Below, in pieces: positions 8,441-54,269 of a stretch of 64,000 nucleotides of DNA (the first letter of the stretch is position 1; every line of letters starts with the position of its first letter). This DNA is from Trypanosoma brucei (taxonomy: Eukaryota): positions 1,440,001 through 1,504,000 of the forward strand of contig CM000208.1 of the NCBI GenBank assembly GCA_000002445.1. The letters run 5' to 3'. Below the pieces are notes generated by a model. The model was given only the letters and a program-made list of their open reading frames with translations. It did not search any database and was not told the origin of the DNA. The position numbers were made by a program, and so were the translations under genes.

Positions 8441-9046
8441 TTAGATCTTGTTCCAAGCAACAATATCCATCGACTGAACATCATCCCCGAAAGACATGAT
8501 CATCTCTTCCAGGTCATCTCCAGATACCTTATCGTCCTCGATGACAACCAACTGTTGCAGTTTCTTAACTCCGAACGCAATGGGCACCAGTTTGTGGTCA
8601 CCCCACAGTAGACCATCTCTCTTAATTGCGTGGAGTTTCTGTGCGAGTCCATCTAAGTCCACTGTGTCATCCCACGGCTTGATGTCAAACAGGATTGATG
8701 ACTTTGCAATGATCACCTTCTTGGAGCTCTTTGCTGCAGCATCCTTCTTCTTCTTAGCCTCCAGGGCCGCAAGTTCCTCTTCAGTGGCCTCACCAAAAAG
8801 ATCGATATCATCATCATCACCGGCAGCAGCTTTGGTCGTCGCGGACGTCTTTGATGCGGTTGCTCCTTTCGTCAGCTGGACGCGTTCCGCCTGATAATAA
8901 GCCGCCATGCGAGCAGCCCATTGAATCACAGCGGTATTAGAACCAAACATCTCACTGAAGATACGAGCGTCTTCTTTACTCGGTGTGAACCCCGAGACGT
9001 ATGGTTGTGCGCTCAGGCGACCGTTGATTTCCTTTAGCGATGACAT
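8441..9046 (-). CDS. EF1B: Translation elongation factor 1-beta (eEF1B-alpha guanine-nucleotide exchange subunit)
   Basis: 201-aa ORF. It has the characteristic acidic [15 protein letters not shown] linker and the C-terminal EF1B GEF domain ([17 protein letters not shown]...[12 protein letters not shown]). A T15 polypyrimidine run followed by AG (+ strand 9133-9150) lies about 90 nt upstream of the ATG. Confidence 0.9.
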
Positions 9047-9150: not shown

Positions 9151-10037
9151 GACAATTCGTTGACCACGCTAGGCATGCAAATATGGAGGCAGTTCACAAA
9201 ACAAAAATTTGTATTAAACTCAAACTACTGAATGAAAAGTTAGAAAAGTTTTCAATGTCCCTCAATCGACAGTGCTGCAGTCACATAAGTCCTCCAGTTT
9301 TGCGAGACAATGCAGTAAACTAAATAGTCGATCCACCGATAAACGTCCACACCCCGTAGTTCCATTTACTTAAAGTCACGAACCACCTCGGAGAAGCCAT
9401 AATGGAGAAATTTGTCTGCTGATCCCATACGTAACTCAGTCAGGGGAATACACGCACAACCATCCTTCTTTACAATTTTGTTCAGTTGCTGTCGGACGGT
9501 TTTCAATCTTATCAGTGGATAATCGTAATATGCCAACGGTGAGGGTTAAAAAAAAAAAAGAAAAGGGGGAGAGGGCTGGGTTGCGCACATTGGGCAACTA
9601 AAGGTCATCATAATCAATGAATAGCAACCCCTCACACCCATGTATTTTCACCCCTCACCGCGGAAACAAATGAAGTTGATGCAGATGGGTTTTAGCAAAG
9701 GAAGGAGATCCAAGCTTACACACGGAAAAAAGGAAAAAAGAAACAGACAAGCACGCACGAAAAAAAAAAAAGAGAAAATGAATGAAAAGGCAAGAAAGTA
9801 ATGTAAAGAAGGGAGCATATATGGACCCCCGCACTACGCGAGATGTCTCGGCTACGTATTCTCAACCTGCTAATCTAACCTCGACAAAACTACAAACGAA
9901 CAAGGCAAACACACCAACACGAGCAGCCAATAACAATTTAACCGAAATAACAATAGCAACCAAGGCACCCCAACAGCTAGACTCACACCACACACAAAAA
10001 TCAATTAACATATACACACACTAACACGAACTACATG

Positions 10038-19000: not shown

Positions 19001-22000
19001 CACGCACGGCATCCGTGGCCTCCCCGTACGACCAAACGGAGGCGCTCTCATCTAATGCAACTTTGAATTTTCTTTCGAGTGGACCAACGTTGAGTGTTCC
19101 TGACAATGATGGTATATGAAATACCACGAGCGGTTCCCCGGACGGTTCTTCGAGATGCACTGCGCACCTGCGAAGTAAAACATTAAGCACCGATGTGGTA
19201 GCCGGAGGGACGACATTGTTCCCCTCGCGATAAAGGTGTGTTGCGCGTTTGGTCCTTCCCCACTCGGCCAACCAGGTGCGACAAGCAACGACAAACCTTA
19301 GCAGCGCGAGGCACGAGTGGCGTGCAGCAAATACTGTTATGTTGTCGAAGACGCAATCAACGATAACCTCGCTGAGTGGCCCCCGCTGTTTTCGCGTCAC
19401 CCTGGAGATGGAGCTTTTTCCTAGCTCAATCAGTCTCCTTCTGTGGCCTTTAGTAGTCTGATGAATTACCTGCTGTTGTTGCCAGTGAGGCACACCAGGA
19501 AGAAGAACGCGACGACTGGGGGTTGCGTCATCAATGGAAAGGGCATCAAAGCGAATTACGGTTGAGGGCTCACCCCCCGCTGTGCCGTTGGTCGAGTACA
19601 ACTGCATATGTGTATTAATTTCCAGTATAGCTTCTTCATCATCCTCACCTTTTTCGATAAGCGTACATCGAAGCGGCGAGACTGTTGAGAGAACGTAGGT
19701 AGCCATCTTCGGCGCCGATCCACCAGCATCTGGAGGCGCACTGTGGGGACATTTCGGCGTACTGCAAACCTCACAGAAGTTAAAAAGAAATGAACGGATG
19801 AAAGACGCTAGCATTCGTGGCGTTAGCTTCAAACACTGAATTGCACCCCTGGTGGGACTATTACCGACACTAACACCGCCTGCACCATGTTCAACATCGA
19901 CCATGTCTGGAGCGCTTTCAAAGGCAGAGGGATCAATGTTCAATAGTATTGCGAGGTCGTTACTCCCACCGCCAACATGCACGTAATGTTCTTTATCAGC
20001 ACCAGGCACCAGGCGCATCTGACTATTAATTACCGCCGAGGCACGAGAGATGAAGGGCACCATCACGGACTGCGACCCACTTCCTGTGAATAGGTGCCGC
20101 ATCTGCTGAAGTTCTGCAGTTAGTCTGAAGGGTTGTCGGGAAAGTATGTTGCCCGCGGTATCTTTCATCATGTCGTTGTATATGAGGGTAATACGCTCGA
20201 TATCGAGGGTAATGAATGTATCATCTTTCAGGAAGTCGATCCTTTGAGTTGCATCAGTGGCGACAAAAACACTAATGCCGCTGATCTCACTACGGGCGCT
20301 AAAAAAACTTTTCCCAACCCTCCTGTCCTCTCTCTTTGCGGGAGCAACCTTTTCACACGATGCAAGTAAAAAGCCTTGTTTGCTGTAATGTGAGTCAAAC
20401 ACAGAAAACATCTCCATAACGCTTGGCGTCCAATAAATTGAAAGAAGCCGCACCCAATATTCATAAAATATGTGGACACAACCGCCTATGATGTCAAAAC
20501 TCACGTGCGTTCGTGTTGTATCCTCTTCTGATACACCGGACGAACAAAATTTAAAGGTGCTACAGGACGAACTGCCGCGAGTGGATATATTTTTAACTGA
20601 GGAAAATAACACAAATGGTCCCATCGTTTCTCCTCCGACCGCCATGTACTCGATACCTGCTAGAGCTCCATAAGCCTTCACTTTTGTCACCTTTGTTGTG
20701 TCACCCTCAGTCCCGACGCTTCTCTGCAACACCAAATCATTTACAGATACCAAAATAATCCCATCTGCTTCCTCCGAGCAGAACCGGACGTCTAGCCGCC
20801 CAATGTCGACATCGACTACCTGATTACTAAAAACACTTTTCACGGAAGAGGTCTTGGTCGACGTTTCAGTGTCATTGGGGAGAGCACCATCCCTTTCCAC
20901 AGCCCGAGCAACACCACCAAAAAAGCGAGCGGCTAAATCTGACGCTGATAACGACTGTCGCCAAAGGGAGGCGTAGGCACCCAGTAGCACCTCCACGCAG
21001 CAAACCAGAGAACTACATATTACAACCTGCGCTGCAACCGCTGTGAGGGAAAGTGAAGCTGCATACGGGACGTACTTCGCAGTGAAATTCTCGAGCACAA
21101 GCATGTACTGCCCACAGGGCGAACAAACATGTAGTTCTGGTGACCGCACCGCAGCGACCATATGTTTACCACCCTCCGAGATGCTTGTCTCCACTCTAAG
21201 CGCACGACTACCTTCAAACGTTAGTGAAGACACCGAAGGATGGTGTTCACCTCCATCCATGCAGTGCGGTAGATCAATATACCCAACATCTTTACCAGCG
21301 ATATCTTGCACAATTACTCTCCCAGAGTATATCACCAGTTCAACACCTTCCATAAAAAGCATATCCCGCTGCGTAGGAACCGCTCCCACACTTACTTCTC
21401 CATGCGGCACCTGTTCATTGGTGCTTTTAAGTGCCTGCGCCGCCCACTTCGCACTGTCGCACGCGTACTTGTACAAAACGGCAAGGTAGTTACGACACTG
21501 AGATGCTGGAAATGTAAATGTACTGTTCCCGACAGACAGAACCGTATCGGATTCAAGGCGCCATTCGCTACCGTTTTCAGTGATGTGCTGCAGGAGAGCC
21601 TGCAGTGTGTCTCTGTCAAGAAGCGACAAGTTGCTTAGATGATCAGAAATAATGGCAAAAAACAGTGGCTCGACAGTCAATTCGGCCCGCAGGGTTCCAA
21701 AAAGAGGCACACCCTTCTCAAATGTGACGACTACTACAACATCCCACAAAGTTAGTACGCTTGAAGTACCTGTGCATCGGATACTGATTGGAGTTTCAAC
21801 ACCAGAAACAAGCTTCCACGACACCTGCGGCTCTCGTCCAAGTTTGGAAAGGTAAATGTTGTTGACACACAAAGTGAGGTTGCGTTGACACGACCAGGCA
21901 GATGCCAGAGGAACAGAAACGATAACTCCGTCCACACAAATATCAATTGCGGAAAATGTTTTGGCCGTTTGGCATTTGGAAGGGTTGCAGCTTCGGTTGG

Positions 22001-36717: not shown

Positions 36718-38121
36718 TCACATAGCTACAGGGGCCTCGAACCATAGACACATTTTGAGCATGAATGTAAAGGGCAGAACTGGGGTGGAAATCGTATCGA
36801 TGCATTCGACATCCTCAGCTGTTGTCTCACTCCCGTCGGGGGCAACTTTGTTAAGCATTTTAAGAGCCCTCTCAACAAACAGCACCGAACCGGATTTGGC
36901 ACGGTGCTCAACAGCCAACTTCCTTAATGCTGGAGCGGTATCGAGCGCAACTTGAAGTTCACGATGCAAACCCACGACGTAGCGCATTTTGCTCTTTGAC
37001 ATCACTAACTCAAACAGTGCCAAGTCTTTATCACGTTGAGATAGTGGTGTCCCTGTGCTACTCATACGATTGATCAGAACATCAAGTTCTTGCGATACAG
37101 ATGCTTCTACATTACGCGTAGCAGTGCCCTTCATCTGCAATTCCATTACTTCCGGTACCTCACCACGCACAATGATGTTGCAATGCTTGAGAACATTAAA
37201 ACGCTTGTCGCTGCCATTTAAACGTAATTCACCTTCCGCTTGCAGAGCAGCATGTATGTCCTCCGGAACCACACCCAAGTCTTTCACCGTTGCCACTATA
37301 GCACGCGCAACAGCAGCCTTCTGCAACTCCCAACGCTTCCCTTCGCGCTTCAGATATGCATCCAAAATTTCCATGCGCTCTTTTTCAAGGCAATCCGCTT
37401 CGACGCTCCCTGGCTGCAGTGGATTTTCGTTGTCGTCGGCGAGAGCCATTTCGAAAGCGGACTCAAGCAGTGTCAATCGTAAAGCGTCAGGATTTTTCCA
37501 AAACGGGAGGGGCTCACTGTCCTTTACTTCCGCTGCTTCTGCCACTTTCTCTCCCAAATATGGGGCGCCTGGTGCATCATTGTGGAGTATCTCAATACTC
37601 TCCAAACGACTCTGGGAAGAAACCCCCCGAACAACATTGCTGGTTAAAAACTCAACAGTTTCCTCACCCACCACCGGCACGGGGTCATTGGGTACTTTAC
37701 TGCGTCCGCCCTCTTCGGCACATTTTTGTTCGATATCATCCAAACGAGTTGTCCTCTTCACTAACCCAGCCAGTACAGAAGCGAGGTCAGAAGCCCGTTC
37801 TGTCTCACCACTAGCGATACATATGGTTAACTCCCGATGTAAACGAAGGGCTGCCGGGTTCGTGCGGAAAACATTCGACAGAACGGTCATGGCGTCAGGT
37901 CGCTTGCGCTCCTTCCCTACAGCCTCCACGCCAATCGCGTTATTCTCTCGCATCTCCGAGAGCAGCGTAACTGAATTCCCCGTCACACGGCCCGAGGGAA
38001 TCCCCTCATGGCAGCTGCGGCGCTGGGATGTCATTGGGTTTCTGAAACGAAATGTACAATACCATGAAGAATCACTAAAGAGGGAGTTGATTATAACCTT
38101 TTTTGTACGGTAAAAAGACAT
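36718..38121 (-). CDS. Hypothetical protein (E/A/L-rich, alpha-helical)
   Basis: 467-aa ORF with no motif I can name. The true start is probably an internal Met (e.g. MTSQRRS, about 38034), because the first residues look like read-through of the 5' flank. Confidence 0.45.
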   Translation of the reverse strand: MSFYRTKKVIINSLFSDSSWYCTFRFRNPMTSQRRSCHEGIPSGRVTGNSVTLLSEMRENNAIGVEAVGKERKRPDAMTVLSNVFRTNPAALRLHRELTICIASGETERASDLASVLAGLVKRTTRLDDIEQKCAEEGGRSKVPNDPVPVVGEETVEFLTSNVVRGVSSQSRLESIEILHNDAPGAPYLGEKVAEAAEVKDSEPLPFWKNPDALRLTLLESAFEMALADDNENPLQPGSVEADCLEKERMEILDAYLKREGKRWELQKAAVARAIVATVKDLGVVPEDIHAALQAEGELRLNGSDKRFNVLKHCNIIVRGEVPEVMELQMKGTATRNVEASVSQELDVLINRMSSTGTPLSQRDKDLALFELVMSKSKMRYVVGLHRELQVALDTAPALRKLAVEHRAKSGSVLFVERALKMLNKVAPDGSETTAEDVECIDTISTPVLPFTFMLKMCLWFEAPVAM

Positions 38122-42102: not shown

Positions 42103-44478
42103 TCAGGAAAGTTTTTTCCGTTTTACTTTTTTATTCTTACCTTTCGACCGTATGACGTCTTTAACCGATTGTGTTCTGTGCCGCTTTCCGGGAGCACTGG
42201 CACCTTCACGCTCTGAAATGAGTGTTTCACCTTCACGGTGCCGCTTGCGTTCAAGCTGACATTTTTTATCTACGTCTCCACTTGAGGAAAGCTCGGGCTC
42301 TTTACTTTTCGAGTTAATGATTTGTGGTGCTTCCACGTAGTCGTGAGAAATGCGCAACGCCTTGAAGAGTATATCTCTCCGGGTAGCGTCCGTAGCTGCA
42401 TTGCTTTTGTGGTTGGTTTGTTCACTCACAAGAACAGGTGCCATGCGACGTAGCTCGAAGCTGTAAGACATTTTTGCACATGATCTGCCAGTAGTCAAGA
42501 GGCCACTGCTCGACAGGGCGGCAACTCCTTTTCCTTCGTCTCCCGCAACGGCGCCGAGTGTAGATGTGGCGGTCTCTTTACCGGCAAGCGCGCCCAAAGT
42601 GGGTACACACAACTCAATCGTGCGACGCCATGCCAAGAGCAACCGAGAAAACGTGGACAACCTACCACCAAATTCTGCGACGCTGTTGGAAATTTTGCTG
42701 TAGTTTCTCGGACTATGTTTGAGGCAATCCATAATGTTCTTGCGACTCACCTCCGCTGTCGTGAATGGTGCAAGAAATCTTGATAACTGTACGCAGCGCT
42801 GTGCACCAGAGGCCGTAACGGCGGATGCGAGTGTGCCCGCAACGTCCGTTTGAAGCACCATTCGACTTTCCCCACGACCGGACCGTATCCTAGCTGCAGT
42901 TATTGCCTCTTCAACAGCCGACACGCCCTTAGCAGCGCTGGACAACACATCTGTTGTAGCCGAACCTACAAGTGGAAAGTGCAACGTTCTCTTCTTTGTT
43001 TGGTTGAGCACTGACAGAAAGGCCGCAACACTAGGAACGGAAACCACCTCTGAAATATTCCTTGTGTCCAAAAAAGTATCGTCCACTCGACCCGCCGCTA
43101 CCCTTCCAACGTTGCAAGCAACGATGTATCGGAGAGCAGCGTAAGCGGCATGCGAAAGATACAACAAGGCCCTTTCTTTGTCTTCATCGGTCATTGGGCG
43201 TGATTGTACATCTGCATACTGTGCTGTATCCAGTAAAGTGCACAGAAAGGAACAATCTACGACAACGGAAGCAATATCATCAGATTGCTGGTCCTTTATA
43301 CTAAGGATGCCGTTGAGGTCAAACAGCGTGCGGCCCATCTCTTTCTCCCTTTCCGACTCAGCAGTATTGTATTTCATCTTGCAGTACGCCCTCCAGCATG
43401 ACTGAATATCCACTTTTGTTGCGCCACGGATGACAGGTGGTACACTGCCTCCGTTTCCCATAACGATAATGAAGAGGAACACCATGTCCACACAGCTGTT
43501 CTGAAGAATTTCAGCCACAGCTGCTTGAGAAACCATGGTTGGCACGCAAGTGGATGGACCTGCTTTCGGTGGGTGCAGTTCATTGTCCATATTGCCGCCA
43601 CCATTACGAGTATCCCTGAGACCTTCACTTTGCGCGTGGTCATCGTCATCATCTGAGTCACCTAACACAACACGGACACCAGTCGAGACCATTGGTCCAT
43701 CAACCTTCTTCCTGCGAGTAATTTGCTCCTCTCCATCTCCCTCCGTTTCCATTTGTTCGGCATGGAAAATGCTATCGGTGCTTCCGACTGGACCGCTATC
43801 GACCGTCATATCCTTCTCTTCCTCCACACTCGTCTCCGCGCCGCTAATAAACGCCTCCATGCATACGCCAACATGAGCCAATACGTGTGAAACACGAAGC
43901 ACGCACATATCAATCATCGTGTCGCGCAACTTTGTTACGATGGAAACTGTATGGGGTGCAGGACCACAAAGAGCGCCACAGAGAACGTCAGAATCTTCCG
44001 ATACCATGCAGAAAGTTGGTAGTTTATCGCTTCCACCATTGGTAAAAACTTGCATTATAATGAACCTCTGAATGTCCAATATCTTGTAATCTGCTTCACC
44101 AGCAACATGACGACCACTGATTAAGACTTGTGGAACGCTCTCACCCCCACATTGCTCGTAATGGCGCTGCAGGTCGCTGCCAAAGCGCTGAATGACCACA
44201 TCAGTGTCCAACACTGTCGAGTGCGTCCGTTGAGCCCTCGCCGTGTCACTGCGCTGCCGTTGCCCGTCTACAGCGAAAATAACAGCTTGACGCACCTGCA
44301 CTTGGGAACGACGAAGGAACGCCCCCAACACCTCAAGACCAATGGTTTGGGCTGCATTTGTAGCATCAATTAGAATAAAGTCAAAGCACAGAGGCGTTGC
44401 AACACTGTCCCGGGGTAACCGGCAGAGCGCCCCCGGGGCCGTGCGGGATACAAACTTTAGAAAGTCTGGCACACCCAT
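42103..44478 (-). CDS. XRN-family 5'-3' exoribonuclease-like protein (divergent; short XRNB/C/D-like class)
   Basis: 791-aa ORF beginning MGVPDFLKFVSRTAP. That start matches the MGVPKFFRW start of XRN1/XRN2. The acidic motifs are also present: LIDATN (corresponds to LYLDMNGIIH), AVDGQRQR (corresponds to AIDGVAPRAK), GEADYKI (corresponds to GEGEHKI) and EDSDVL (corresponds to LDADLIML). The C-terminus is K/R-rich. Confidence 0.55.
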   Translation of the reverse strand: MGVPDFLKFVSRTAPGALCRLPRDSVATPLCFDFILIDATNAAQTIGLEVLGAFLRRSQVQVRQAVIFAVDGQRQRSDTARAQRTHSTVLDTDVVIQRFGSDLQRHYEQCGGESVPQVLISGRHVAGEADYKILDIQRFIIMQVFTNGGSDKLPTFCMVSEDSDVLCGALCGPAPHTVSIVTKLRDTMIDMCVLRVSHVLAHVGVCMEAFISGAETSVEEEKDMTVDSGPVGSTDSIFHAEQMETEGDGEEQITRRKKVDGPMVSTGVRVVLGDSDDDDDHAQSEGLRDTRNGGGNMDNELHPPKAGPSTCVPTMVSQAAVAEILQNSCVDMVFLFIIVMGNGGSVPPVIRGATKVDIQSCWRAYCKMKYNTAESEREKEMGRTLFDLNGILSIKDQQSDDIASVVVDCSFLCTLLDTAQYADVQSRPMTDEDKERALLYLSHAAYAALRYIVACNVGRVAAGRVDDTFLDTRNISEVVSVPSVAAFLSVLNQTKKRTLHFPLVGSATTDVLSSAAKGVSAVEEAITAARIRSGRGESRMVLQTDVAGTLASAVTASGAQRCVQLSRFLAPFTTAEVSRKNIMDCLKHSPRNYSKISNSVAEFGGRLSTFSRLLLAWRRTIELCVPTLGALAGKETATSTLGAVAGDEGKGVAALSSSGLLTTGRSCAKMSYSFELRRMAPVLVSEQTNHKSNAATDATRRDILFKALRISHDYVEAPQIINSKSKEPELSSSGDVDKKCQLERKRHREGETLISEREGASAPGKRHRTQSVKDVIRSKGKNKKVKRKKLS

Positions 44479-46033
44479 ATATAAATAAATAAATAATATA
44501 TATATATATATGCCGCTACTTGGCGTCAGCTATATCAGACAATTCCTCTACTCACTGATGAGGAGAGACAAGTTCTCTTTTTTTTAAAATTTTTATCAAC
44601 TAACCTATCCCTATTAAACGACTTTCAAAGGTAACATATTCATGACAATAACAAAAGCAAATGCCAAAGGCAATAATGAGACAGCTGGTGAGGTACACCC
44701 TATATGCTTCAGGAATAGTAAACCAAAAAGGTATTGCAACATGAGAAAGAAAGCTAAAGAGAAAGACTCAAACAAAAATAGAAGAATGGTAGGTACGTTA
44801 TGGTGTCTCGCTAATCCGAAAGAAAACTAAGAATTTTAAAAAAAAGAGGTGAAAAGCCCAAGAATAAAAAAAAAAATATCGCGCACCATCACAATGGAAC
44901 TAACCAAACGACCGAAGCCATCCCTTTATGTAAGGAAAGGAAGAAGAGAAAAAGAGTACAACTGAAAGGGCTTCATGCACATGCTTCCCCTCTAAAAGGC
45001 TTAACCATGGGTTACTAAGGCAGCTAACTATTCCAACCACACACATATTACAGTTAGAGAACAGGAAATGCAACGACCGCGATAATGGCGCCGCTGACAG
45101 CAGGTTTAACGGGCACATTTGGCATGTCATCTACGGCTACTGCAAAACAAAAAGAAGGAAAGAAAGAAAGGAAACAGCAGCAACAACGGAAGCCAAAAAA
45201 ATACACCAAAAATGGATATATACATCCATATAACGCCGCTGATGAGAGAACATACAATAAGAAGAGATAATAACCGCACCATTAGATACCCTAATGCCCG
45301 CACAGAAAAATAAAAAGGAAAACATTATATGGAGGGAGATGTATACCTCTCTACATATATCATATGTTTTGTATATTAAGTATTATATAATATATATTTC
45401 GTACGTATCAAAAACGTTGAATGCTGATAATAATAATAATGATAATCAAGTAGGTGACAAAGGTAACAAGTTGGTGGAGAGCATACACCATGACACCAAC
45501 CCATGGTTACTATGATACCACCAACACCAAATAAACACATACATGCATCTATGTACATAAACTAAATTAAAAGTACATACCATACATATCGATAAGGAGA
45601 AAAACCTACAAATAATATTATTTACTATGAAGCATTAATGACGGCATATAGTCACCGTTCACATCACCGAACTAAACCGCCGGTACATATCAATGGCTTC
45701 AAAAACTCAATCACAGGAATGACAATAAAAAACAAAACAAACAAAAAAAGGAAAAAACCAACGATAAACCTAAAAAGGAAAGAAAAACAACAACCCTTAG
45801 GGAAATAAAATTACATTGCCTTTCCACAGACATTCCAACCCAGAACATCTTAAATACAGAAAAAGAGAAAAAAATCAAATAATCGAAAATAAAAACAAAA
45901 CTACAAATCAATGAAAAGAAATATTAACCAGCAGCGAACACAAAAAAATAGAGAAAAAGAAAACAACAAATCTTAAACCGTACAGTCACAAAAAATAAAA
46001 CATTATAAATTCAAAAGGAAAAAGTATAAAGCT

Positions 46034-47506
46034 TTACAATCCAAGAACCTCCTGTATTTTCTGCATCCATGCATCACGCTTAGCAGGGCTACGGGCTTGA
46101 AAAAGAAGACGCCTCCCTGCCTTGAAAGCAACAGCGAACACGTTAGGAGCGTTGGAGCCGGTATACTTGCTCGGCACCGGGAATACATCCTCCAGGTCCG
46201 TGAATGGAGTGGCAATACACTGCCGTTGCAAAGTGTCTTTTGAAATGGCAAGCACAAGGTGAAGACTCTTAAACTTCGGAAGCTTCCCAACACTAAGGTC
46301 CTCACCATTCTCGAGCTCAGCACGGATGCACAGGTATCGTCGCTTCCATGACATGTCACTACTCTGTTTCTTTATTATACCCTCATACAGTGTCACGTCA
46401 CCAAGGCCACTGCAGGGAGTTGCACCCTCCAGTACCGCAGTGGATATCGCGGTACTGTACGATTCATCCATCTGCTTAACAACACTTCGTTTGTCAGCTC
46501 GTAGTAGTTGCTTAATGTTACGGATATCGGAAGGAATCACGTCACGTAGTGGACCTTCAAATGCTGGTTGTGTTTGCACAATCTCAAGCAAACCAGACAT
46601 AAACAGTTTGCAGATGGGCATATCCAACAACTTCCCACTGCAAGGTCGCTGCTTAGGATCACTGCTCAACAAAAGGGAAACAATTTCAGCCATCTCGGGA
46701 CTCGTTTCAGGTGGTAACGGATCGTACTGTCCGCTCAGGGTTCTATTCATCACATCACGCATACTCTCCCCATCAAAAGGACGCCTGAGTGTCAACAGTT
46801 CATATAAGAGGACACCAAGAGAGAACAAGTCGGCTTTCTTGCTGTATGGTTTCCGACGCCAAATCTCCGGTGCAACGTAATATGGCGTACCACAGAACGT
46901 CTTTCCAACATCATCAGAGACTGTCGCAGAATACATTTTGGTGAATCCAAAGTCTCCAAGCTTTATTAGGCCGTTGCTGCACAGGAGGATGTTCGCTGAC
47001 TTGATATCACGATGGATCATATGCCGCGAGTGTACATGATGAAGTGCAAGGAGAACCTGAATGAACAACAACCCAGCCTCATGCTCACGGAATGCGCGTG
47101 ATGTTTTTGCACGGCTTTTGATTTCCTGCCGGAGGTCTCCAGCATTTGCGTAGTCGAGCACCAGTGCTATCATCAGCACATTCACCTCATTCTGTGGATC
47201 TTTCTTTGCAAAGTCCTCATGGCACTTCAGGATTGAAAAGAAATCACAGTTCATCAAACAGTGTACCTCAGCCTGTGCGCGGTTTTTGTCTCCTTCGTTC
47301 ATACCTTCCAAGTCCACAACCTTCACTGCAAACGTTTCACCATCGGACGTCCGTTTGGCACACAACACCGTACCGGTGGCACCTGAACCCAGAACCCGTT
47401 TAATCCAATATTTCTTCTTCTGCTCTTTCGCTGTGGCTTCGTCTTTTGCGAAAGCCTCACCGAAGGTGCGGCACACACGCCCAATCATTGCATCCGTTGA
47501 CGACAT
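46034..47506 (-). CDS. NEK (NIMA-related) Ser/Thr protein kinase with C-terminal PH domain, tandem copy 1
   Basis: 490-aa ORF. Kinase motifs are LGSGATGTV (Gly loop), FAVKVV (VAIK), HRDIKSANILL (NEK-type catalytic loop), LGDFGFTK (DFG) and YYVAPEIW (APE). A C-terminal PH-like domain is present (GIIKKQSSDMSWKRRYLCIRAELENGEDLSVGK...FQARSPAKRDAWMQKIQEVLG). Confidence 0.8.
   Translation of the reverse strand: MSSTDAMIGRVCRTFGEAFAKDEATAKEQKKKYWIKRVLGSGATGTVLCAKRTSDGETFAVKVVDLEGMNEGDKNRAQAEVHCLMNCDFFSILKCHEDFAKKDPQNEVNVLMIALVLDYANAGDLRQEIKSRAKTSRAFREHEAGLLFIQVLLALHHVHSRHMIHRDIKSANILLCSNGLIKLGDFGFTKMYSATVSDDVGKTFCGTPYYVAPEIWRRKPYSKKADLFSLGVLLYELLTLRRPFDGESMRDVMNRTLSGQYDPLPPETSPEMAEIVSLLLSSDPKQRPCSGKLLDMPICKLFMSGLLEIVQTQPAFEGPLRDVIPSDIRNIKQLLRADKRSVVKQMDESYSTAISTAVLEGATPCSGLGDVTLYEGIIKKQSSDMSWKRRYLCIRAELENGEDLSVGKLPKFKSLHLVLAISKDTLQRQCIATPFTDLEDVFPVPSKYTGSNAPNVFAVAFKAGRRLLFQARSPAKRDAWMQKIQEVLGL
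46038..47506. repeat. Tandem segmental duplication, unit A (kinase CDS)
   Basis: Near-identical to 48208-49676. Homology begins just inside the 3' end of the CDS and stops abruptly at the ATG. The flanks are unrelated. Confidence 0.85.
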
Positions 47507-48191
47507 TCCAAACTACGTGTTATGTTCCCTAATGGAAGCACTTCTAGGTGCTTAGCAGAACTTTGACAGGGACAAAAAGATATTGTAGCAGAGGAATACA
47601 AAACAAAACAGAGAATTAGAGGCGTATTTATGTCGTTATATTTTTCTCTTAGGCTTAATATATGATAGAAGTAATGCTTGACGCGTGATGTACGGCTTTA
47701 CACTTTGGTTAAGCAGTCGTACCAAACTGTATTTGAACGTACGAGTCACCCAACATATACGGATACACACTCGCACGCAACATATTTCAATTTTCGAACA
47801 GCAATAAAGCTTACGACAGAGAATCGCTCGAAAGCATTCGCCTTCTTCCGCGGAGTATATTTTGCTAGATGTAATAGATTACATGATTCACCAAGGAAAG
47901 ACAACAGCTGAGTAGTTATACACGAACATATGATATGTAGCGTAATACTAACAGACTAAAAATGGAAAGCCATCTCCTTCTTTAAAGAAAAATACGACAT
48001 TGAAACAAGCTATACAAAATACACAAGTATTCCCTACCCTAGAACACCCCGATTATATAGAGGGAAAGAGTAAGAGAGGAAAGCATCTCATGCGGCAATA
48101 ATACGCCGCGCATATTCGCGTATATATAGTTATATATGCCCTCACAAACGCGAGGAAGGGTAAACACGTTGCGGCGCAGGAGTGGCACGGT

Positions 48192-49676
48192 TCACTCAGC
48201 ATCACCAATGCCAAGAACCTCCTGTATTTTCTGCATCCATGCGTCACGCTCAGGAGTGCCGCGGGCTTGAAAAAGAAGACGTGAACCTCCGACAAATACA
48301 ACAGCGAACACGTTAGGAGCGTTGGAGCCGGTATACTTGCTCGGCACCGGGAATACATCCTCCAGGTCCGTGAATGGAGTGGCAATACACTGCCGTTGCA
48401 AAGTGTCTTTTGAAATGGCAAGCACAAGGTGAAGACTCTTAAACTTCGGAAGCTTCCCAACACTAAGGTCCTCACCATTCTCGAGCTCAGCACGGATGCA
48501 CAGGTATCGTCGCTTCCATGACATGTCACTACTCTGTTTCTTTATTATACCCTCATACAGTGTCACGTCACCAAGGCCACTGCAGGAAGTTGCACCCTCC
48601 AGTACCGCAGTGGATATCGCGGCACTGTACGATTCATCCATTTGATTTACAATGCTTCTTTTCTCAGCTCGTAGTAGTTGCTTAATGTTACGGATATCGG
48701 AAGGAATCACGTCACGTAGTGGACCTTCAAAGCCCGGTTGTGTTTGCACAATCTCAAGCAAACCAGACATAAACAGTTTGCAGATGGGCATATCCAACAA
48801 CTTCCCACTGCAAGGTCGCTGCTTAGGATCACTGCTCAACAAAAGGGAAACAATTTCAGCCATCTCGGGACTCGTTTCAGGTGGTAACGGATCGTACTGT
48901 CCGCTCAGGGTTCTATTCATCACATCACGCATACTCTCCCCATCAAAAGGACGCCTGAGTGTCAACAGTTCATATAAGAGGACACCAAGAGAGAACAAGT
49001 CGGCTTTCTTGCTGTATGGTTTCCGACGCCAAATCTCCGGTGCAACGTAATATGGCGTACCACAGAACGTCTTTCCAACATCATCAGAGACTGTCGCAGA
49101 ATACATTTTGGTGAATCCAAAGTCTCCAAGCTTTATTAGGCCGTTGCTGCACAGGAGGATGTTCGCTGACTTGATATCACGATGGATCATATGCCGCGAG
49201 TGTACATGATGAAGTGCAAGGAGAACCTGAATGAACAACAACCCAGCCTCATGCTCACGGAACGTGCGTGAAGCTTTTGCACGGCTTTTGATTTCCTGCC
49301 GGAGGTCTCCAGCATTTGCGTAGTCGAGCACCAGTGCTATCATCAGCACATTCACCTCATTCTGTGGATCTTTCTTCGCAAAGTCCTCATGGCACTTCAG
49401 GATTGAAAAGAAATCACAGTTCATCAAACAGTGTACCTCAGCCTGTGCGCGGTTTTTGTCTCCTTCGTTCATACCTTCCAAGTCCACAACCTTCACTGCA
49501 AACGTTTCACCATCGGACGTCCGTTTGGCACACAACACCGTACCGGTGGCACCTGAACCCAGAACCCGTTTAATCCAATATTTCTTCTTCTGCTCTTTCG
49601 CTGTGGCTTCGTCTTTTGCGAAAGCCTCACCGAAGGTGCGGCACACACGCCCAATCATTGCATCCGTTGACGACAT
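48192..49676 (-). CDS. NEK Ser/Thr protein kinase with C-terminal PH domain, tandem copy 2
   Basis: 494-aa ORF, about 97-98% identical to copy 1 across the CDS. The differences are scattered substitutions plus a diverged extreme C-terminus (VFVGGSRLLFQARGTPERDAWMQKIQEVLGIGDAE versus AFKAGRRLLFQARSPAKRDAWMQKIQEVLGL). Confidence 0.8.
   Translation of the reverse strand: MSSTDAMIGRVCRTFGEAFAKDEATAKEQKKKYWIKRVLGSGATGTVLCAKRTSDGETFAVKVVDLEGMNEGDKNRAQAEVHCLMNCDFFSILKCHEDFAKKDPQNEVNVLMIALVLDYANAGDLRQEIKSRAKASRTFREHEAGLLFIQVLLALHHVHSRHMIHRDIKSANILLCSNGLIKLGDFGFTKMYSATVSDDVGKTFCGTPYYVAPEIWRRKPYSKKADLFSLGVLLYELLTLRRPFDGESMRDVMNRTLSGQYDPLPPETSPEMAEIVSLLLSSDPKQRPCSGKLLDMPICKLFMSGLLEIVQTQPGFEGPLRDVIPSDIRNIKQLLRAEKRSIVNQMDESYSAAISTAVLEGATSCSGLGDVTLYEGIIKKQSSDMSWKRRYLCIRAELENGEDLSVGKLPKFKSLHLVLAISKDTLQRQCIATPFTDLEDVFPVPSKYTGSNAPNVFAVVFVGGSRLLFQARGTPERDAWMQKIQEVLGIGDAE
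48208..49676. repeat. Tandem segmental duplication, unit B (kinase CDS)
   Basis: Partner of 46038-47506. A 685-nt unique spacer (47507-48191) separates the two units. Confidence 0.85.
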
Positions 49677-50326
49677 TTTAAATTATTAAATGTTAGCTAC
49701 TAATTCATAAATTAGAAAGAGCGTTGAAGAATTTTTTTTTGATGGGTGGTGGGGAAGTGTAATGTTTTTGAATTGTATGTTCGTTGTATCACAGTTTTAT
49801 TATTTTCATCGATGTTTCGCTATCGATGATGGTGTCGGTCTTGTGATTTTATTAGATTCTTCAAAGCGGGTCTCACTTTTATTATTATTTGGAGTGGCTG
49901 AACCGCACTTTTCTGTTGGTTATGCGATGAACGAAGTATATGCTGGGTTCTTCACTGTTATTAAGTCTCCTTTGTGAACGAAACCAGAGGCGTATCCGAC
50001 GTCTGCAATATTCGTATCACGCTGTTTATATTCGTTATTGTTTAAAATGCAAAAAAAAAAGATGATTTAGAACTTTCCGGTCAAAATGAGAATCCCCGAA
50101 ACTTACCACACCGCTGAATTATAAATAGCAGAGGAAAGGAAAGGAAACAAATGGGAGTTTACTTGGCGACGTATATAATAAATGACTTTCGGTTGGTCCG
50201 TTCAACAGCGCCTGCTTGCTGAAACAAATTCTCGCATTTTGATTTGCAATCAGTTTTTCCTTACGAGGAGTGTGCCACGCATTATCCTGGAATATCTATC
50301 GCAGAATATCTCACTAACCTTAGATG

Positions 50327-50354
50327 TATAATAATAATAATAATAATAATAATG
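50327..50354. repeat. (TAA)n microsatellite
   Basis: ataataataataataataataat, about 9 units. Confidence 0.85.
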
Positions 50355-51335
50355 TAATAACACTGTTGTTACGCATTAAATGATGAAGGGAGAAAAAAAA
50401 CATTTAGTGGCACTAGGAGCAGGAAACACGGAAATTTTGTTTACACATTCATCTGAATACAAATACAAAATAAATAAATATATATATATATGCAACATTA
50501 TAGTTCACGCGTTCCACGGAGTGACAGAGGCATGTGTGGGCAAATGACGAAAAATTATTCGATTCCTTCCCATTTAAAAACAGAAAAAAATGCTTGTCAC
50601 GCCTCAAAAATTCTTCCTTTTTCCCTTTTGTGTGTGTGTGTTTTGGAGAAGGGGGAAGAGGGGGGAAAGGAAAGGTTTGAATGGGGGTTGGAGCGAACGG
50701 GGCGACAAACAGTGAAGACGCAAAAGCAGAAAACACAAACACATAAACACAAAAAAAAAAGGATTCACAGTTTTTTTTTAAAAAAAAGACAGCTGGGACT
50801 GAGATAACACGTTAACGGAATTTTCTGCCATTTGTAATCTCCAGTCCTTCCACAGACACACACACACACACACCCTTCCTCTCCTCTTCACCACGTTGGC
50901 ACAAGAAAAAGAAAACACGCACAAATATACATTTCATTTTAGACGAACATAAAACCATTCACAAGCATCAAGACTTCACAAACCCCTCAAAAAAAAAAAA
51001 ATCATAATAACAGTTTTTCTTTTTTAAGCCCTTTCATGAAACTACCGAGATTCAAAATGGGTGCCCTCCACATGATAAAACACTTTTCCTCCTCCTCCGC
51101 CCCCCCCCTTTTCTTTTTCATTTATTTTTTTTTGTTTTTTTTGTTTTACTTCGCCCACCTTTAACCAAATATTCCTCATGTAACACAAAGATACGCGCGT
51201 AAGTAAAAATAAAAATAAATTCGAACTCAACATAAAGGTAAGGAAACACCTACAAGGGTAGAAACATATGCGATAACACATTCCCTCAAAGGTACATGAG
51301 CTAAAGCAATGGGAAGGTGAAAAGTAATGGATTGT

Positions 51336-51420
51336 GTTCGGGTTCGGGGCGTGGGTTTGGGTTCGGGGCGTGGGATGTGGGATGTGCGATGTGGGGAAAC
51401 AAAACAAAACAAAACAAAAA
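51336..51420. repeat. G-rich degenerate minisatellite followed by (AAAAC)n
   Basis: ggttcggggcgtggg occurs twice in tandem. Then come atgtggg atgtggg atgtgcg atgtgggg, then aaacaaaacaaaacaaaacaaaaac. Confidence 0.8.
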
Positions 51421-52889
51421 CGAATTGATGAAGTAACGTGAGATTTTCATAAATGAGTTATCGCATACGCAAAAAACAAAAAAAACAACATATTCCCAAA
51501 CACGGAAAGCAACAGCGACAACAAGCACGACAAGAGAGGAAACGATTAACATTGACAACTAATAAAATAGGGAGTAAAGGGTTGTGCGTGACTGCGTGTT
51601 CGCGTTTGCTTGTTCGTAAGTGAGTAGAGGTGGGATATAAAATAAACATAAATTTTATAAAGCAAAACAAAGGACAAACAAGCAAATGAGAAACAGAAAT
51701 GTAAGGGAATAAAGAGGAATGAAAAAAAAAACAAAAAACAAAAAAAAAGAAGATAACATGCAACAAGTAGTGTTACGCAGCAAACACAACTGCACGTTGG
51801 GTGGGTAGCCAAACAGAGCAAAAATCATATGCGCCCACGCAAAAGGTTTAAAAAAAAACCAAAAGGGAGAGGGGGGAAAAAAGGAGAAAAAAGAAAGCAA
51901 CTAAAAAAAAAGTTTAAAAAGCAATAATTTAAACATAAAAAATGGAGAGGAACGAACGGCCACCGTTTTTTTTTTCCCTCTTCCACAAGTAGAGAGAAGA
52001 GCACACGCTCATAAAATGATGGGGGAAGAGTGGTTAGAAATTTAACTACCCAATACCCACATCTTTATGAAATTGACAACCCAATAAGTTTGAAATAACG
52101 TGAAAAGAAAAAAAAGGAGGGGAGAGTAGGGAATAGAAGGATGGAACTCTGTTTCAGGGACATTTCATTCAGTAAACAAATACTTAAACGCCTATTTCCT
52201 TTCAACAGAAAGCTAAACCCGCATTATTAACCATAACCCTCAAAGGGAGAGCACAAAAAGTTGTCGTAGTAATAATGATAGCAATGTACACCTATCTTGT
52301 TATTTCTTTTTCTTTTCCTTTCTTTCTTTTTTATAAAAAAAAAAAAAAGAAAAATGTTCGCTTTCTTTCCTCACCAAAACACAACAATTTACCTTACCTC
52401 CTTCATATTTTCTTGATCCTATCCCGTGATCCACGCCCCCCCCCCCATATTTCCCTTTTCCCCCTCAAAAACAAAAAACATAACGTCGTCCTTGTTTGCT
52501 AAATAATGACAGCAACAGGCAACACATTTCACTACAAACGCTGTGACACAACATTCTTATTTGGCACCGCACGTCACCACTCAACGGTCCACAACATTAA
52601 CAACAATGGCGATGCACAATACAGGTGCATGCGTAATATTTCCTTTTCTATATATGAATAAATAGGCATGACAAGAGACGCATTTACTGATATCACTCTA
52701 TCTATCACATTCCACCTGGATTTTTGCGGCGAGCAACCACACGGTGTAATGCCGTTGTTTATTCAACAAAAAAAAAACAAAGTCCTCTTTATCCCCTTCA
52801 TTTTTTTCCCAGACCCCAATTTTTCCCTCCGCCTATAAATAAGTAAAAAAAAACCAACCAAACAAACAAACATTTCTTGTGTTAACCCG

Positions 52890-54269
52890 TCACTCTTCAT
52901 TATTATCATCATGATCCCCTTCTGGGGAAGGAACTGGATGCCGGGCACTGCTGCACGCACTAAATATTTGTGGAGCCCCTTTTCGCTTGATACTTGCGCA
53001 CAGCTTCACCTTAACGACATTAAAATCACCTATCATTGGAGCCCGCCCTCCCCGCTGCTTCTTCAGCTCCAGCCATAGCTCCAGGAACTGAAATAAGCAA
53101 CCAACATAATATTCACAGCACGTAATTAAAAAAGGAAATTCACGCCGCAGGGTTTCCTCACACTGCGGATGCAACGGTAGAGGGGATATGTTTTGCTTAC
53201 CCCCTCTACCTTCACCACCAGAACTTCGCGCTCGCCGCATCATCTCTGCATGAGTTCGTGTATCCTTCAGCTGATCAAGTACCACACCGGTAAAATTAAA
53301 TCCGATTAAAACAAACGGAAGCTCCTCAAAAACGTTGTCACCATCCTCCCCCTTTTTTATACACGTGTCCCACAAGCGAAAACCGAATGCTCTATAGTAC
53401 TCAAGAAGAAACACTAACTGCAACAAACCAAACAACCCCGTAGAGCGAAGGTCAGTTGCCGGATCACTCCCTTGAAACCCAAGCTTCTCCCACTCATTCC
53501 AGACATTGCCATTGTGCTCCTCGGCGTCACGAATCAATACATTGCGAAGTGTTATGAGCAGCCGTCGGTGAATGGGATTACTGTGGTCAAATGGCATAGA
53601 AGGAAGTGTTGAGCAAAAATCCACATCCTGCTGGAGAACCTGTTTCGGATTTTTGGGATCTATGGGAGCATCCGCGTTGGTTTGACTGTCGAGTGATGAG
53701 GAGCTGTTACAACAAAAGAACACTTTTCTCAGGAAACCACGCAACCGAAGACATCGCCCCCTCCCCCGTGCACGCAGTGGTATCGCATATGGTTCCCATG
53801 AGGATCTGTCATGCTTTAACGCACGAACCGCGTCAACAAAACTAATGGAACGAAAAGACTCACCAGTGTCAGCATGACTCAAACTCATGACGCTAAGCAC
53901 CCGCCTCATCGTTGCGTCATTAACATCATCCCAGTCAATCGATGGCACAGAAGAGTCGCATTTTCTACTTTTGGACTCCCTCTCAGACTCTGAGTATTTG
54001 TGGCGTGAGGTATCTGCTATAACAACATTACCTGTAATGCTTTCAGAGGGAGAAAATGCTTCGGGAAACGCATCCTCACTTGCCTTCAGGCTTTGCACAC
54101 AACCCATTACAACATTGCCATGAAGTTGCTGCTCCAACTGCAGTTGCAACTGCTGCTGGTGTTGCTGATCTAATTCGCAAGGTGTCGCAATAATATCATC
54201 AGAATTTCTATAGCTTAACACAACGGCATCCGGTGAAACAACGGTTAGGTCGGTGGACGAAGTTCCCAT
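52890..54269 (-). CDS. ELMO-domain protein (ELMOD-like, candidate ARL2/ARL3 GAP)
   Basis: 459-aa ORF. Its core (WNEWEKLGFQGSDPATDLRSTGLFGLLQLVFLLEYY) matches the ELMO-domain signature W-x-x-L-G-F-Q-G-x-D-P-x-T-D-F-R-G-x-G-x-L-G-L-x-x-L-x-Y. Confidence 0.6.
   Translation of the reverse strand: MGTSSTDLTVVSPDAVVLSYRNSDDIIATPCELDQQHQQQLQLQLEQQLHGNVVMGCVQSLKASEDAFPEAFSPSESITGNVVIADTSRHKYSESERESKSRKCDSSVPSIDWDDVNDATMRRVLSVMSLSHADTGESFRSISFVDAVRALKHDRSSWEPYAIPLRARGRGRCLRLRGFLRKVFFCCNSSSSLDSQTNADAPIDPKNPKQVLQQDVDFCSTLPSMPFDHSNPIHRRLLITLRNVLIRDAEEHNGNVWNEWEKLGFQGSDPATDLRSTGLFGLLQLVFLLEYYRAFGFRLWDTCIKKGEDGDNVFEELPFVLIGFNFTGVVLDQLKDTRTHAEMMRRARSSGGEGRGGKQNISPLPLHPQCEETLRREFPFLITCCEYYVGCLFQFLELWLELKKQRGGRAPMIGDFNVVKVKLCASIKRKGAPQIFSACSSARHPVPSPEGDHDDNNEE

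What the first reader, a model, noticed from the sequence alone, without database searches (positions are those of the whole stretch)
46034..49676. Tandem NEK-PH kinase genes whose homology is confined exactly to the coding sequence
Two NEK-type kinase genes with C-terminal PH domains sit head-to-tail and are about 97-98% identical over about 1.47 kb. The identity starts a few codons inside the 3' end and stops abruptly at the start codon. Both the 5' flanks (47507 onward versus 49677 onward) and the 3' flanks (below 46034 versus 48192-48207) are unrelated. This pattern is what CDS-restricted gene conversion in a kinetoplastid tandem array would leave. It is not what a recent whole-unit duplication would leave. 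The extreme C-termini differ (…EVLGL versus …EVLGIGDAE, plus AFKAGRR versus VFVGGSR just upstream), so the two paralogues may differ in PH-domain tail function. From memory, T. brucei has a three-copy NEK17 array downstream of an EF1-beta gene on chromosome 10, with links to stumpy-form differentiation. If this is that locus, a third copy may have been collapsed in the assembly.
Basis: partly seen in the sequence, partly recalled or inferred. Interest (0 to 1): 0.5.

Follow-up and report, generated by a model that had tools for sequence, protein, structure and literature searches.

The report
Known trypanosome NEK17 kinase gene pair
These are two copies of the already published Trypanosoma brucei NEK17 kinase gene cluster, kept nearly identical only within their coding regions by gene conversion, which is a familiar pattern in trypanosome gene arrays, and this assembly probably lacks a third, middle copy.

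Summary
Two minus-strand ORFs, A (46034-47506, 490 aa) and B (48192-49676, 494 aa), are 97.6-97.7% identical. The homology runs from about the ATG to A's last sense codon, and neither flank aligns even when gaps are allowed.

Both proteins match T. brucei TREU927 chromosome-10 entries EAN78009 and EAN78010 exactly. This is the published NEK17 cluster (Tb927.10.5930/5940/5950) of the stumpy-form quorum-sensing pathway.

Gene conversion, not recent duplication or selection, explains the pattern:
- dS between A and B is 0 to 0.02 over most of the gene but 0.48 in the last 30 codons.
- Synonymous sites are saturated against other trypanosomes.
- Site patterns against T. b. gambiense fail the four-gamete test.
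- T. cruzi, T. melophagium and T. grayi show the same restriction of homology to the coding sequence, while L. donovani does not.

T. b. gambiense and T. equiperdum carry a middle copy and a second spacer that the window lacks. Papers list three TREU927 genes, so a missing copy is likely but cannot be proven without reads. A and B are therefore the two end copies of the array, which partly explains the exact coding-sequence boundary.

The protein differences cluster in the PH domain's beta6-beta7 loop and the C-terminal tail. This is a known locus showing a known phenomenon, so interest is low.

The parts
48192..49676 (-). NEK17 copy B, the first copy in transcription order. It encodes 494 aa and equals TREU927 EAN78010/XP_822838 exactly. 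Kinase domain at 48786-49574, PH domain at 48216-48557. C-terminus ...VFVGGSR...EVLGIGDAE.
46034..47506 (-). NEK17 copy A, the last copy. It encodes 490 aa and equals TREU927 EAN78009/XP_822837 exactly. Kinase domain at 46616-47404, PH domain at 46046-46387. C-terminus ...AFKAGRR...EVLGL.
46130..47506 (-). Homogenised tract of copy A (codons 1-459). Its partner in B is 48300-49676. dS is 0.029 overall and 0 in codons 1-99 and 365-459. The longest identical run is 527 nt.
46037..46129 (-). 3' block of copy A that has escaped homogenisation (codons 460-490). Its partner in B is 48206-48299. dS is 0.48. It includes the PH beta6-beta7 loop block at A 46112-46128 and B 48282-48298. The block is copy-specific and conserved in T. 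b. gambiense and T. equiperdum.
47507..48191 (-). Intergenic spacer IG1 (685 nt), unrelated to either outer flank. It is 98% identical to the B-to-M spacer of T. b. gambiense. Its ends (48072-48191 and 47507-47633) are the only parts shared with the second spacer IG2 of relatives. By inference these ends are B's proximal 3' UTR and A's splice-acceptor and 5' UTR region.
44479..46033 (-). Unique 3' flank of copy A, reaching down to the XRN_N-like gene (42103-44478). No homology to B's 3' flank.
49677..52889 (-). Unique, AT-rich 5' flank of copy B, reaching up to the ELMO gene (52890-54269). It has no ORF of 200 aa or more. No homology to A's 5' flank.
46453..46493 (-). Private cluster of 8 substitutions in 41 nt (CDS nt 1014-1054) found only in the window's copy A. 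It is absent from window B, gambiense B, M and A, and T. equiperdum A. This looks like a short conversion tract from an unsampled donor, or a chimeric consensus.

Best explanation
The window carries the T. brucei TREU927 chromosome-10 NEK17 array. These are NIMA-related kinases with a C-terminal PH domain that act in the slender-to-stumpy quorum-sensing pathway.

The array is old. Tandem paralogues occupy the same syntenic slot in T. cruzi, T. melophagium and Leishmania, and T. grayi also has a tandem pair, on a short contig whose synteny could not be checked.

The copies are kept nearly identical by repeated gene conversion and unequal crossing-over that start inside the coding sequence and stop where homology runs out. 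The spacers diverged long ago or are of different origin, so they cannot be converted. The boundary therefore reinforces itself and sits close to the ATG.

At the 3' end, homogenisation has not crossed about codon 459 for a long time. The last 30 codons and the 3' UTRs therefore evolve separately in each copy.

[quoted passage not shown] The middle copy has A's 5' flank and B's 3' end and flank, which is what an unequal crossover between misaligned A and B coding sequences would produce. The two-copy form in this window is most likely an assembly collapse, or else a real crossover deletion.

Shown: the identity of the genes, the boundaries, the dS mosaic, recombination between copies, and the three-copy structure in relatives. 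Inferred: the conversion mechanism and why tracts stop where they do, the collapse, and any functional difference between copies.
For: Identity of the genes:
- Both proteins match TREU927 proteins exactly.
- NEK1, NEK7 and NEK2 are the best solved relatives.
- HRD165, DFG185 and Thr195 are present, and Thr195 is the published NEK17 activation-loop phosphosite.

Boundaries.

Not explained by selection alone:
- dS between A and B is 0.029 over codons 1-459, whereas synonymous sites are saturated against T. cruzi and T. melophagium.

Patchiness:
- dS runs 0, 0.02, 0.17, 0 and 0.48 along the gene.
- A 527-nt identical run has P < 1e-5 if the 35 differences were spread uniformly.

Recombination:
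- Sites 729 and 753 group copies by genome, while 17 sites group them by copy, so the four-gamete test fails.
- T. equiperdum's A copy carries a B-type patch at nt 1416-1426 inside A-type sequence.

Old array with concerted evolution:
- T. melophagium copy 1 matches copy 3 at 100% in the kinase domain but 38% in the linker and N-terminal PH region. That linker is closer to T. grayi copy b (52%).
- Homology restricted to the coding sequence recurs in T. melophagium (4 copies), T. cruzi (2 copies, 99.7%) and T. grayi (starts at -9).
- Leishmania has tandem paralogues at the syntenic site.

Third copy: plus three gene IDs in the literature.

General precedent: Jackson 2007, PMC1855330, describes concerted evolution in T. 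brucei arrays, different UTRs on terminal copies, and arrays collapsed during assembly.
Against: - No T. congolense or T. vivax DNA could be fetched. The age of the A/B split within the African trypanosome lineage is therefore not dated directly.
- Orthologues are more alike (window A to gambiense A 99.25%, window B to gambiense B 99.12%) than paralogues (97.6% and 98.4%). Conversion has therefore been sparse since the subspecies split.
- In L. donovani the paralogue homology runs 2.4 kb past the stop codon. Restriction to the coding sequence is not universal in the family.
- Why the 5' boundary falls within about 10 nt of the ATG in B versus A is not explained mechanically.
- The collapse of a third copy is inferred from relatives and from the literature, not from reads.
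Confidence: 0.8

Rival explanations
1. A recent duplication copied only the coding sequence, for example by a microhomology-mediated insertion of a coding-sequence-sized segment. No later conversion occurred. On this view the 2.3% divergence simply dates the duplication.
For: Homology ends sharply near the ATG and near the stop codon. Overall divergence is low.
Against: - dS is strongly heterogeneous, ranging from 0 to 0.48, which does not fit a single date.
- Four-gamete incompatibility and a B-type patch in T. equiperdum A show exchange between copies.
- The same restriction of homology to the coding sequence would have to arise independently in T. cruzi, T. melophagium and T. grayi.
- The array slot is occupied by paralogues as far out as Leishmania.
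Confidence: 0.07
2. An ordinary whole-unit tandem duplication occurred, and purifying selection alone has conserved the coding sequences while the non-coding flanks drifted beyond recognition.
For: The kinase domain is highly conserved at the protein level across trypanosomatids.
Against: - Synonymous sites are nearly identical between A and B (dS 0 to 0.03 over codons 1-459).
- The same sites are saturated between species.
- Selection on the protein cannot hold synonymous sites identical while the flanks randomise.
Confidence: 0.02
3. The pattern is an assembly artefact. Reads from several near-identical copies were merged, creating false junctions, so the unrelated flanks are not real neighbours.
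For: The window has two copies where relatives have three and the literature lists three. The T. cruzi 2013 assembly shows one copy where the 2018 assembly shows two. Window A carries a private 8-substitution cluster that could be a chimeric consensus.
Against: - The same B-IG1 junction and the same A 3' flank are found collinear in the independent T. b. gambiense assembly at about 98% identity.
- The A flank is also present in T. equiperdum.
- Homology restricted to the coding sequence also holds among the three gambiense copies apart from about 110-125 nt.
- Collapse affects copy number, not the pattern itself.
Confidence: 0.05

Closest known systems
T. brucei NEK17 cluster (Tb927.10.5930/5940/5950), a quorum-sensing / stumpy-induction kinase (Mony et al. 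2014, as cited in PMC4403954; McDonald et al. 2018, PMC6034907)
   Same: - Both window proteins match the TREU927 chromosome-10 proteins exactly.
- They have the NEK kinase plus PH architecture.
- Thr195 is present in the activation loop.
- The copies are nearly identical and so cannot be told apart by RNAi.
   Different: The window shows two copies, whereas the papers list three. The papers do not describe the coding-sequence-limited homology, the unrelated spacers or the copy-specific PH loop and C-terminus.
Concerted evolution of T. brucei tandem gene arrays (Jackson 2007, PMC1855330; Jackson et al. 2010, PMC2854126)
   Same: - Gene conversion and sequence mosaics occur within arrays.
- Copies cluster by species.
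- First and last copies have curtailed or entirely different outer UTRs.
- Copy number is unreliable in assemblies.
   Different: That survey covered arrays of four or more copies, so NEK17 was not included. In most of those arrays the internal intergenic sequences are also identical. Here the spacer cores (IG1 and IG2) are unrelated, and only the coding sequence plus about 110-125 nt is shared.
Classical trypanosome arrays with isoform-specific ends, such as PGK A/B/C and the THT1/THT2 hexose transporters (from my own knowledge, not checked here)
   Same: Coding regions are homogenised by conversion, while distinct UTRs or termini allow stage-specific regulation or targeting.
   Different: No copy-specific expression or localisation has been shown for NEK17.
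Syntenic NEK-PH arrays in T. cruzi, T. melophagium, T. grayi and Leishmania
   Same: - The genomic slot is the same in T. cruzi and T. melophagium (ELMO, array, EML_helical gene, XRN-like gene).
- In L. donovani the downstream EML_helical gene is present.
- Synteny could not be checked for T. grayi, whose contig is only 4.2 kb.
- The Trypanosoma species show homogenisation limited to the coding sequence.
   Different: - These species keep a second 'type-2' linker/PH module that T. brucei lacks.
- T. cruzi and T. melophagium also have an upstream 622-727 aa kinase that T. brucei lacks.
- In L. donovani the homology runs from about codon 88 to 2.4 kb past the stop.

Membership tests
NEK (NIMA-related) protein kinases | Complete eukaryotic protein kinase domain with catalytic motifs | tested here: met
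   Pkinase E about 1e-54 over aa 35-297. GSGATG40, AVK60, HRD165, DFG185 and APE212 are present in both copies.
NEK (NIMA-related) protein kinases | Kinase domain closer to NEKs than to other kinase families | tested here: met
   Best PDB hit is NEK1 (167 bits, E 3.8e-48), followed by NEK7 and NEK2 (about 125-133 bits). One PKR-fusion chain scores 134 bits. MARK and RSK score 117 bits or less. The gambiense orthologue is annotated 'NEK family, HsNEK1-like'.
PH domain | Pfam PH hit above the gathering score, and a seven-strand sandwich capped by a C-terminal helix with the conserved Trp | tested here: met
   PF00169 scores 30.8 and 29.1 bits against a cut-off of 25.1. The AlphaFold2 model (pLDDT 85) has strands at 371-381, 387-398, 412-420, 430-434, 438-444, 456-461 and 466-470, and a helix at 474-488. 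W480 is invariant in 40 homologues.
PH domain | Phosphoinositide binding | not testable with these tools
   Copy A keeps K462 and R465 in the beta6-beta7 loop, while copy B has V and S there. Whether this matters for lipid binding is inference only.
T. brucei NEK17 (Tb927.10.5930/5940/5950) | Sequence identity to the TREU927 chromosome-10 proteins | tested here: met
   Exact-sequence look-up returns EAN78009.1 and EAN78010.1, on a 4,054,025-bp contig.
T. brucei NEK17 (Tb927.10.5930/5940/5950) | Three nearly identical tandem genes | tested here: not met
   The window has only two copies and no IG2 core. T. b. gambiense has three, and T. equiperdum has at least M-IG2-A. This is most likely a difference between assembly versions.
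T. brucei NEK17 (Tb927.10.5930/5940/5950) | Role in stumpy formation | not testable with these tools
   From the literature only (PMC6034907 and PMC4403954).
Tandem array under concerted evolution by gene conversion | Paralogues within a species more alike than orthologues between species | tested here: met
   A to B is 97% at the protein level, against 85-90% to T. congolense and T. vivax. T. melophagium and T. cruzi copies are 95-100% alike within species.
Tandem array under concerted evolution by gene conversion | Mosaic or recombinant site patterns between copies | tested here: met
   Four-gamete failure (2 genome-wise against 17 copy-wise sites). B-type patch in T. equiperdum A. Clustered differences with P < 1e-5.
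Tandem array under concerted evolution by gene conversion | Synonymous divergence far below that expected from the age of the flanks | tested here: met
   dS is 0.029 over codons 1-459, while the flanks cannot be aligned.
Simple head-to-tail tandem repeat (whole-unit duplication) | Intergenic spacers homologous between units | tested here: not met
   No flank alignment in the window. In gambiense, IG1 and IG2 share only about 110 nt and about 125 nt at their ends.

The most novel reading that the evidence does not exclude
The NEK17 copies are not redundant. Selection keeps conversion out of the last 30 codons. As a result the end copy A keeps the ancestral basic beta6-beta7 PH loop (K462, R465) with a truncated tail. 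B, and the middle copy in relatives, carry a T. brucei-specific neutral loop (VFVGGS) with the ancestral IGDAE tail. Together with their unrelated 3' UTRs, this would give the quorum-sensing kinase isoforms different membrane or phosphoinositide targeting and different stage-specific expression. RNAi and over-expression of a single copy would have missed this.
Probability: 0.2. Interest if true: 0.5.

Novelty: already known. Interest (0 to 1): 0.2.

Why it matters
NEK17 is a published component of the trypanosome density-sensing pathway that controls transmission. The work here mainly confirms an annotated locus and a textbook style of array evolution.

The practical points are modest:
- The GenBank-type TREU927 sequence in this window probably under-represents the array (two copies rather than three). 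This matters for read mapping, RNAi and CRISPR design, and expression counts.
- The unique spacers and 3' flanks give handles for copy-specific tagging or knockout.
- The copies differ in a PH-domain loop that often contributes to lipid binding, so treating them as interchangeable may hide isoform-specific roles.

Tried and rejected
- Flank homology: tested with gapped local alignment and with word-7 blastn without the dust filter. Only low-complexity noise came back.
- A third copy or a pseudogene relic anywhere in the 64 kb: none found by tblastn or blastn.
- IG2 core of gambiense and T. equiperdum against the window: only its two ends match.
- Relics of the upstream 622-727 aa kinase and the downstream EML_helical gene seen in T. 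cruzi and T. melophagium: no hits other than the NEK17 copies themselves.
- Fetching the TREU927 record itself and the T. congolense locus by exact protein look-up: neither is on record. Chromosome coordinates, the current reference version and an African-trypanosome outgroup at the DNA level could therefore not be examined.
- The idea that the A and B C-termini are relics of the two ancient linker/PH types: rejected. Both copies are type 1, and each tail is a different partial derivative of the consensus seen in T. congolense, T. vivax, T. cruzi and T. grayi.
- A retroposition (mRNA-mediated) origin: considered and rejected, because the homology excludes the UTRs.
- A compensated-frameshift origin for the 11-of-17-nt block at nt 1379-1395: looked at by eye and found no more parsimonious than substitutions, so it was left open.
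Full report
**1. What is in the sequence.**

Two ORFs lie head-to-tail on the minus strand. Copy A is at 46034-47506 and encodes 490 aa. Copy B is at 48192-49676 and encodes 494 aa. All ORFs of 200 aa or more in the window are on the minus strand except one antisense ORF. This is the layout of a kinetoplastid polycistronic unit.

Both proteins have a protein kinase domain (aa 35-297, E about 1e-54). Both also have a C-terminal PH domain above Pfam's gathering score.

A gapped local alignment pairs A 46037-47515 with B 48206-49685. There are 21 mismatches in the 5' 1388 nt and 13 in the last ~90 nt. blastn gives 97.7% over 1473 nt, and the window holds no other copy.

Upstream of the ATG only 6 of 9 bases agree, and similarity then stops. 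At the 3' end homology stops at A's last sense codon, four codons before B's stop.

Sensitive gapped blastn of the 5' flanks and of the 3' flanks gives nothing but short low-complexity matches.

**2. What the genes are.**

An exact-sequence look-up places both proteins in T. brucei brucei TREU927 as EAN78009.1 (490 aa) and EAN78010.1 (494 aa). They sit on a 4,054,025-bp contig.

The best solved-structure relatives are human NEK1 (167 bits), then NEK7 and NEK2 (about 125-133 bits). Other kinase families score 117 bits or lower.

The catalytic motifs and Thr195 are present in both copies. Thr195 is the activation-loop site reported to lose phosphorylation in MEKK1-null cells (PMC6034907).

[quoted passage not shown] The cluster is required for efficient slender-to-stumpy differentiation.

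The EF1-beta gene is in the window at 8441-9046 (EF1_GNE). It is 37 kb away, and the NEK genes are transcribed before it, not after it.

**3. Copy number.**

In T. b. gambiense DAL972 (locus L001) the array reads B, IG1, M, IG2, A:

| Element | L001 coordinates | Notes |
|---|---|---|
| B | 10001-11485 | 494 aa |
| IG1 | 11486-12169 | 98% identical to the window spacer 47507-48191 |
| M (middle copy) | 12170-13488 | Interrupted by a 100-N gap; has the B-type C-terminus |
| IG2 | 13489-14476 | 988 nt |
| A | 14477-15949 | 490 aa |

IG2 matches IG1 only in its first ~110 nt and last ~125 nt, and the cores are unrelated.

A T. equiperdum contig ends inside M and continues IG2-A at 99.3% identity to gambiense. 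The window contains no trace of the IG2 core.

So two close relatives have three copies, and the literature lists three TREU927 gene models, yet the window has two. Jackson 2007 warns that arrays may be collapsed during assembly. T. cruzi Dm28c shows one copy in its 2013 assembly and two in its 2018 assembly.

A missing middle copy is therefore the likeliest reading. A genuine crossover deletion cannot be excluded without reads.

M has A's 5' flank and B's 3' end and flank. This is the product expected from an unequal crossover between misaligned A and B coding sequences.

**4. Why the homology is confined to the coding sequence.**

Purifying selection alone cannot explain it. dS between A and B is 0.029 over codons 1-459. 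Synonymous sites are saturated between T. brucei and T. cruzi or T. melophagium.

A single recent duplication cannot explain it either, because dS is very uneven along the gene:

| Codons | dS (A vs B) |
|---|---|
| 1-99 | 0 |
| 100-313 | 0.02 |
| 314-364 | 0.17 |
| 365-459 | 0 |
| 460-489 | 0.48 |

The longest identical run is 527 nt. That has P < 1e-5 if the 35 differences were spread uniformly.

Comparing window A and B with gambiense A and B gives two kinds of informative site. Seventeen sites group sequences by copy, and two sites (nt 729 and 753) group them by genome. All four combinations exist, so there has been exchange between paralogues.

T. equiperdum's A copy carries a B-type patch at nt 1416-1426 flanked by A-type sequence. 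The window's A has a private cluster of 8 changes in 41 nt.

Since the subspecies split, conversion has been sparse. Orthologues are 99.1-99.3% identical, against 97.6-98.4% for paralogues.

**5. The array is old and the pattern recurs.**

The same slot holds tandem NEK-PH paralogues in T. melophagium (four copies), T. cruzi (two) and L. donovani (two). In T. cruzi and T. melophagium the order is ELMO gene, array, small EML_helical gene, XRN-like gene. T. grayi also has two tandem copies, but on a 4.2-kb contig that holds nothing else, so synteny could not be checked there.

Homology between copies is limited as follows:

| Species | Extent of homology between copies |
|---|---|
| T. melophagium | About -25 nt to about the stop codon |
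| T. cruzi | -48 nt to +17 nt, with 2 kb unique spacers |
| T. grayi | Starts at -9 nt |

T. melophagium copy 1 is 100% identical to copy 3 across the kinase domain. It is only 38% identical in the linker and N-terminal PH region. In that region it is closer to T. grayi copy b (52%). Leishmania proteins show the same kind of module shuffling.

This is direct evidence that partial gene conversion homogenises parts of these genes within species, on top of an ancient duplication.

L. donovani is the exception. There the homology runs from about codon 88 to 2.4 kb past the stop.

**6. Mechanism (inferred).**

Conversion and unequal-crossover tracts start in the shared coding sequence and end where homology ends. 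The spacers are unrelated, so they are never converted, and the boundary maintains itself.

[quoted passage not shown] Their outer flanks are by nature unique, as Jackson 2007 notes for terminal copies. This is why the pair in this window appears to share exactly the coding sequence. When M is included, homology extends about 125 nt upstream (M and A) and about 110 nt downstream (B and M).

**7. Differences between the proteins.**

An AlphaFold2 model of A (mean pLDDT 85) places the AFKAGR / VFVGGS block at the end of beta6 and in the beta6-beta7 loop (residues 460-465). It places SPAK / GTPE at the junction of beta7 and the C-terminal helix.

Other species have AFK(A/T)G(R/K)R and ...LGI(G/D)(D/E)xx at these positions. 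Copy A therefore keeps the ancestral basic loop but has a derived, truncated tail. Copy B has a derived neutral loop and the ancestral tail.

The beta6-beta7 loop is one of the three loops that line the lipid-binding face of many PH domains. That is general knowledge and was not tested here. A functional difference between the copies is possible but unproven.

**8. Verdict.**

The locus is a published, annotated gene cluster. The evolutionary pattern is a well-documented kind in trypanosomes. No paper found here spells out the fine structure for NEK17, but it is not surprising. Interest is low (0.2).

Noticed in passing
window 49677-52889: A 3.2-kb AT-rich stretch (GC about 0.37) between NEK17 copy B and the ELMO gene has no ORF of 200 aa or more. 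T. cruzi and T. melophagium have a 622-727 aa NEK-PH kinase in this position. tblastn finds no relic of it in T. brucei. Only a low-complexity ORF similar to a 147-aa gambiense gene call matches, at 51126-51492.
   Followed up: partly
window 44479-46033: T. cruzi, T. melophagium and L. donovani have a small EML_helical gene (147-174 aa) between the NEK array and the XRN-like gene. No homologue is detectable in the 1.5-kb flank of T. brucei copy A.
   Followed up: partly
window 46453-46493 (copy A, CDS nt 1014-1054): A cluster of 8 substitutions in 41 nt is private to the window's copy A, relative to five other T. brucei-group copies. It may come from an unsampled donor copy, or it may be a chimeric consensus from a collapsed array.
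   Followed up: partly
L002 (T. equiperdum) 1046-2518, CDS nt 1416-1426: The A copy of T. equiperdum carries a short B-type patch inside otherwise A-type 3' sequence. This is a clean example of a short conversion tract.
   Followed up: yes
L003 (T. melophagium) 6211-7710; L008 (T. grayi) 2845-4238; Leishmania proteins P0021, P0022, P0026, P0027: The family has two old linker/PH module types (KLF.SGLLEIVQ and KLY.SVV.EIV). Leishmania also has two N-terminal types. These occur in all combinations, which indicates module shuffling by partial conversion. T. brucei has only type 1.
   Followed up: partly
window 42103-44478 (-): A 791-aa ORF starting MGVPDFLKF has only a sub-threshold XRN_N match (18.8 bits against a cut-off of 22.9). 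It looks like a divergent XRN-like protein and is conserved in synteny across trypanosomatids.
   Followed up: no
window 10038-24278 (-): A giant 4746-aa ORF was not examined.
   Followed up: no
window 37055-38113 (+): This is the only long plus-strand ORF (352 aa). It lies antisense within the 36718-38121 minus-strand ORF and is probably spurious.
   Followed up: no
window 50330-50365 and 50470-50500; 44477-44513: An (ATT)n microsatellite and (TA)n / AT-rich tracts lie in the B upstream region. A 37-nt AT-rich direct repeat pair (76% identity) joins 44477-44513 and 50457-50493. It is probably a chance low-complexity match.
   Followed up: no
L004 vs L005/L006 (T. cruzi Dm28c): The 2013 Dm28c assembly has one NEK17-like copy, while the 2018 assembly has two identical copies 3.6 kb apart. 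This illustrates how this array collapses in some assemblies.
   Followed up: yes
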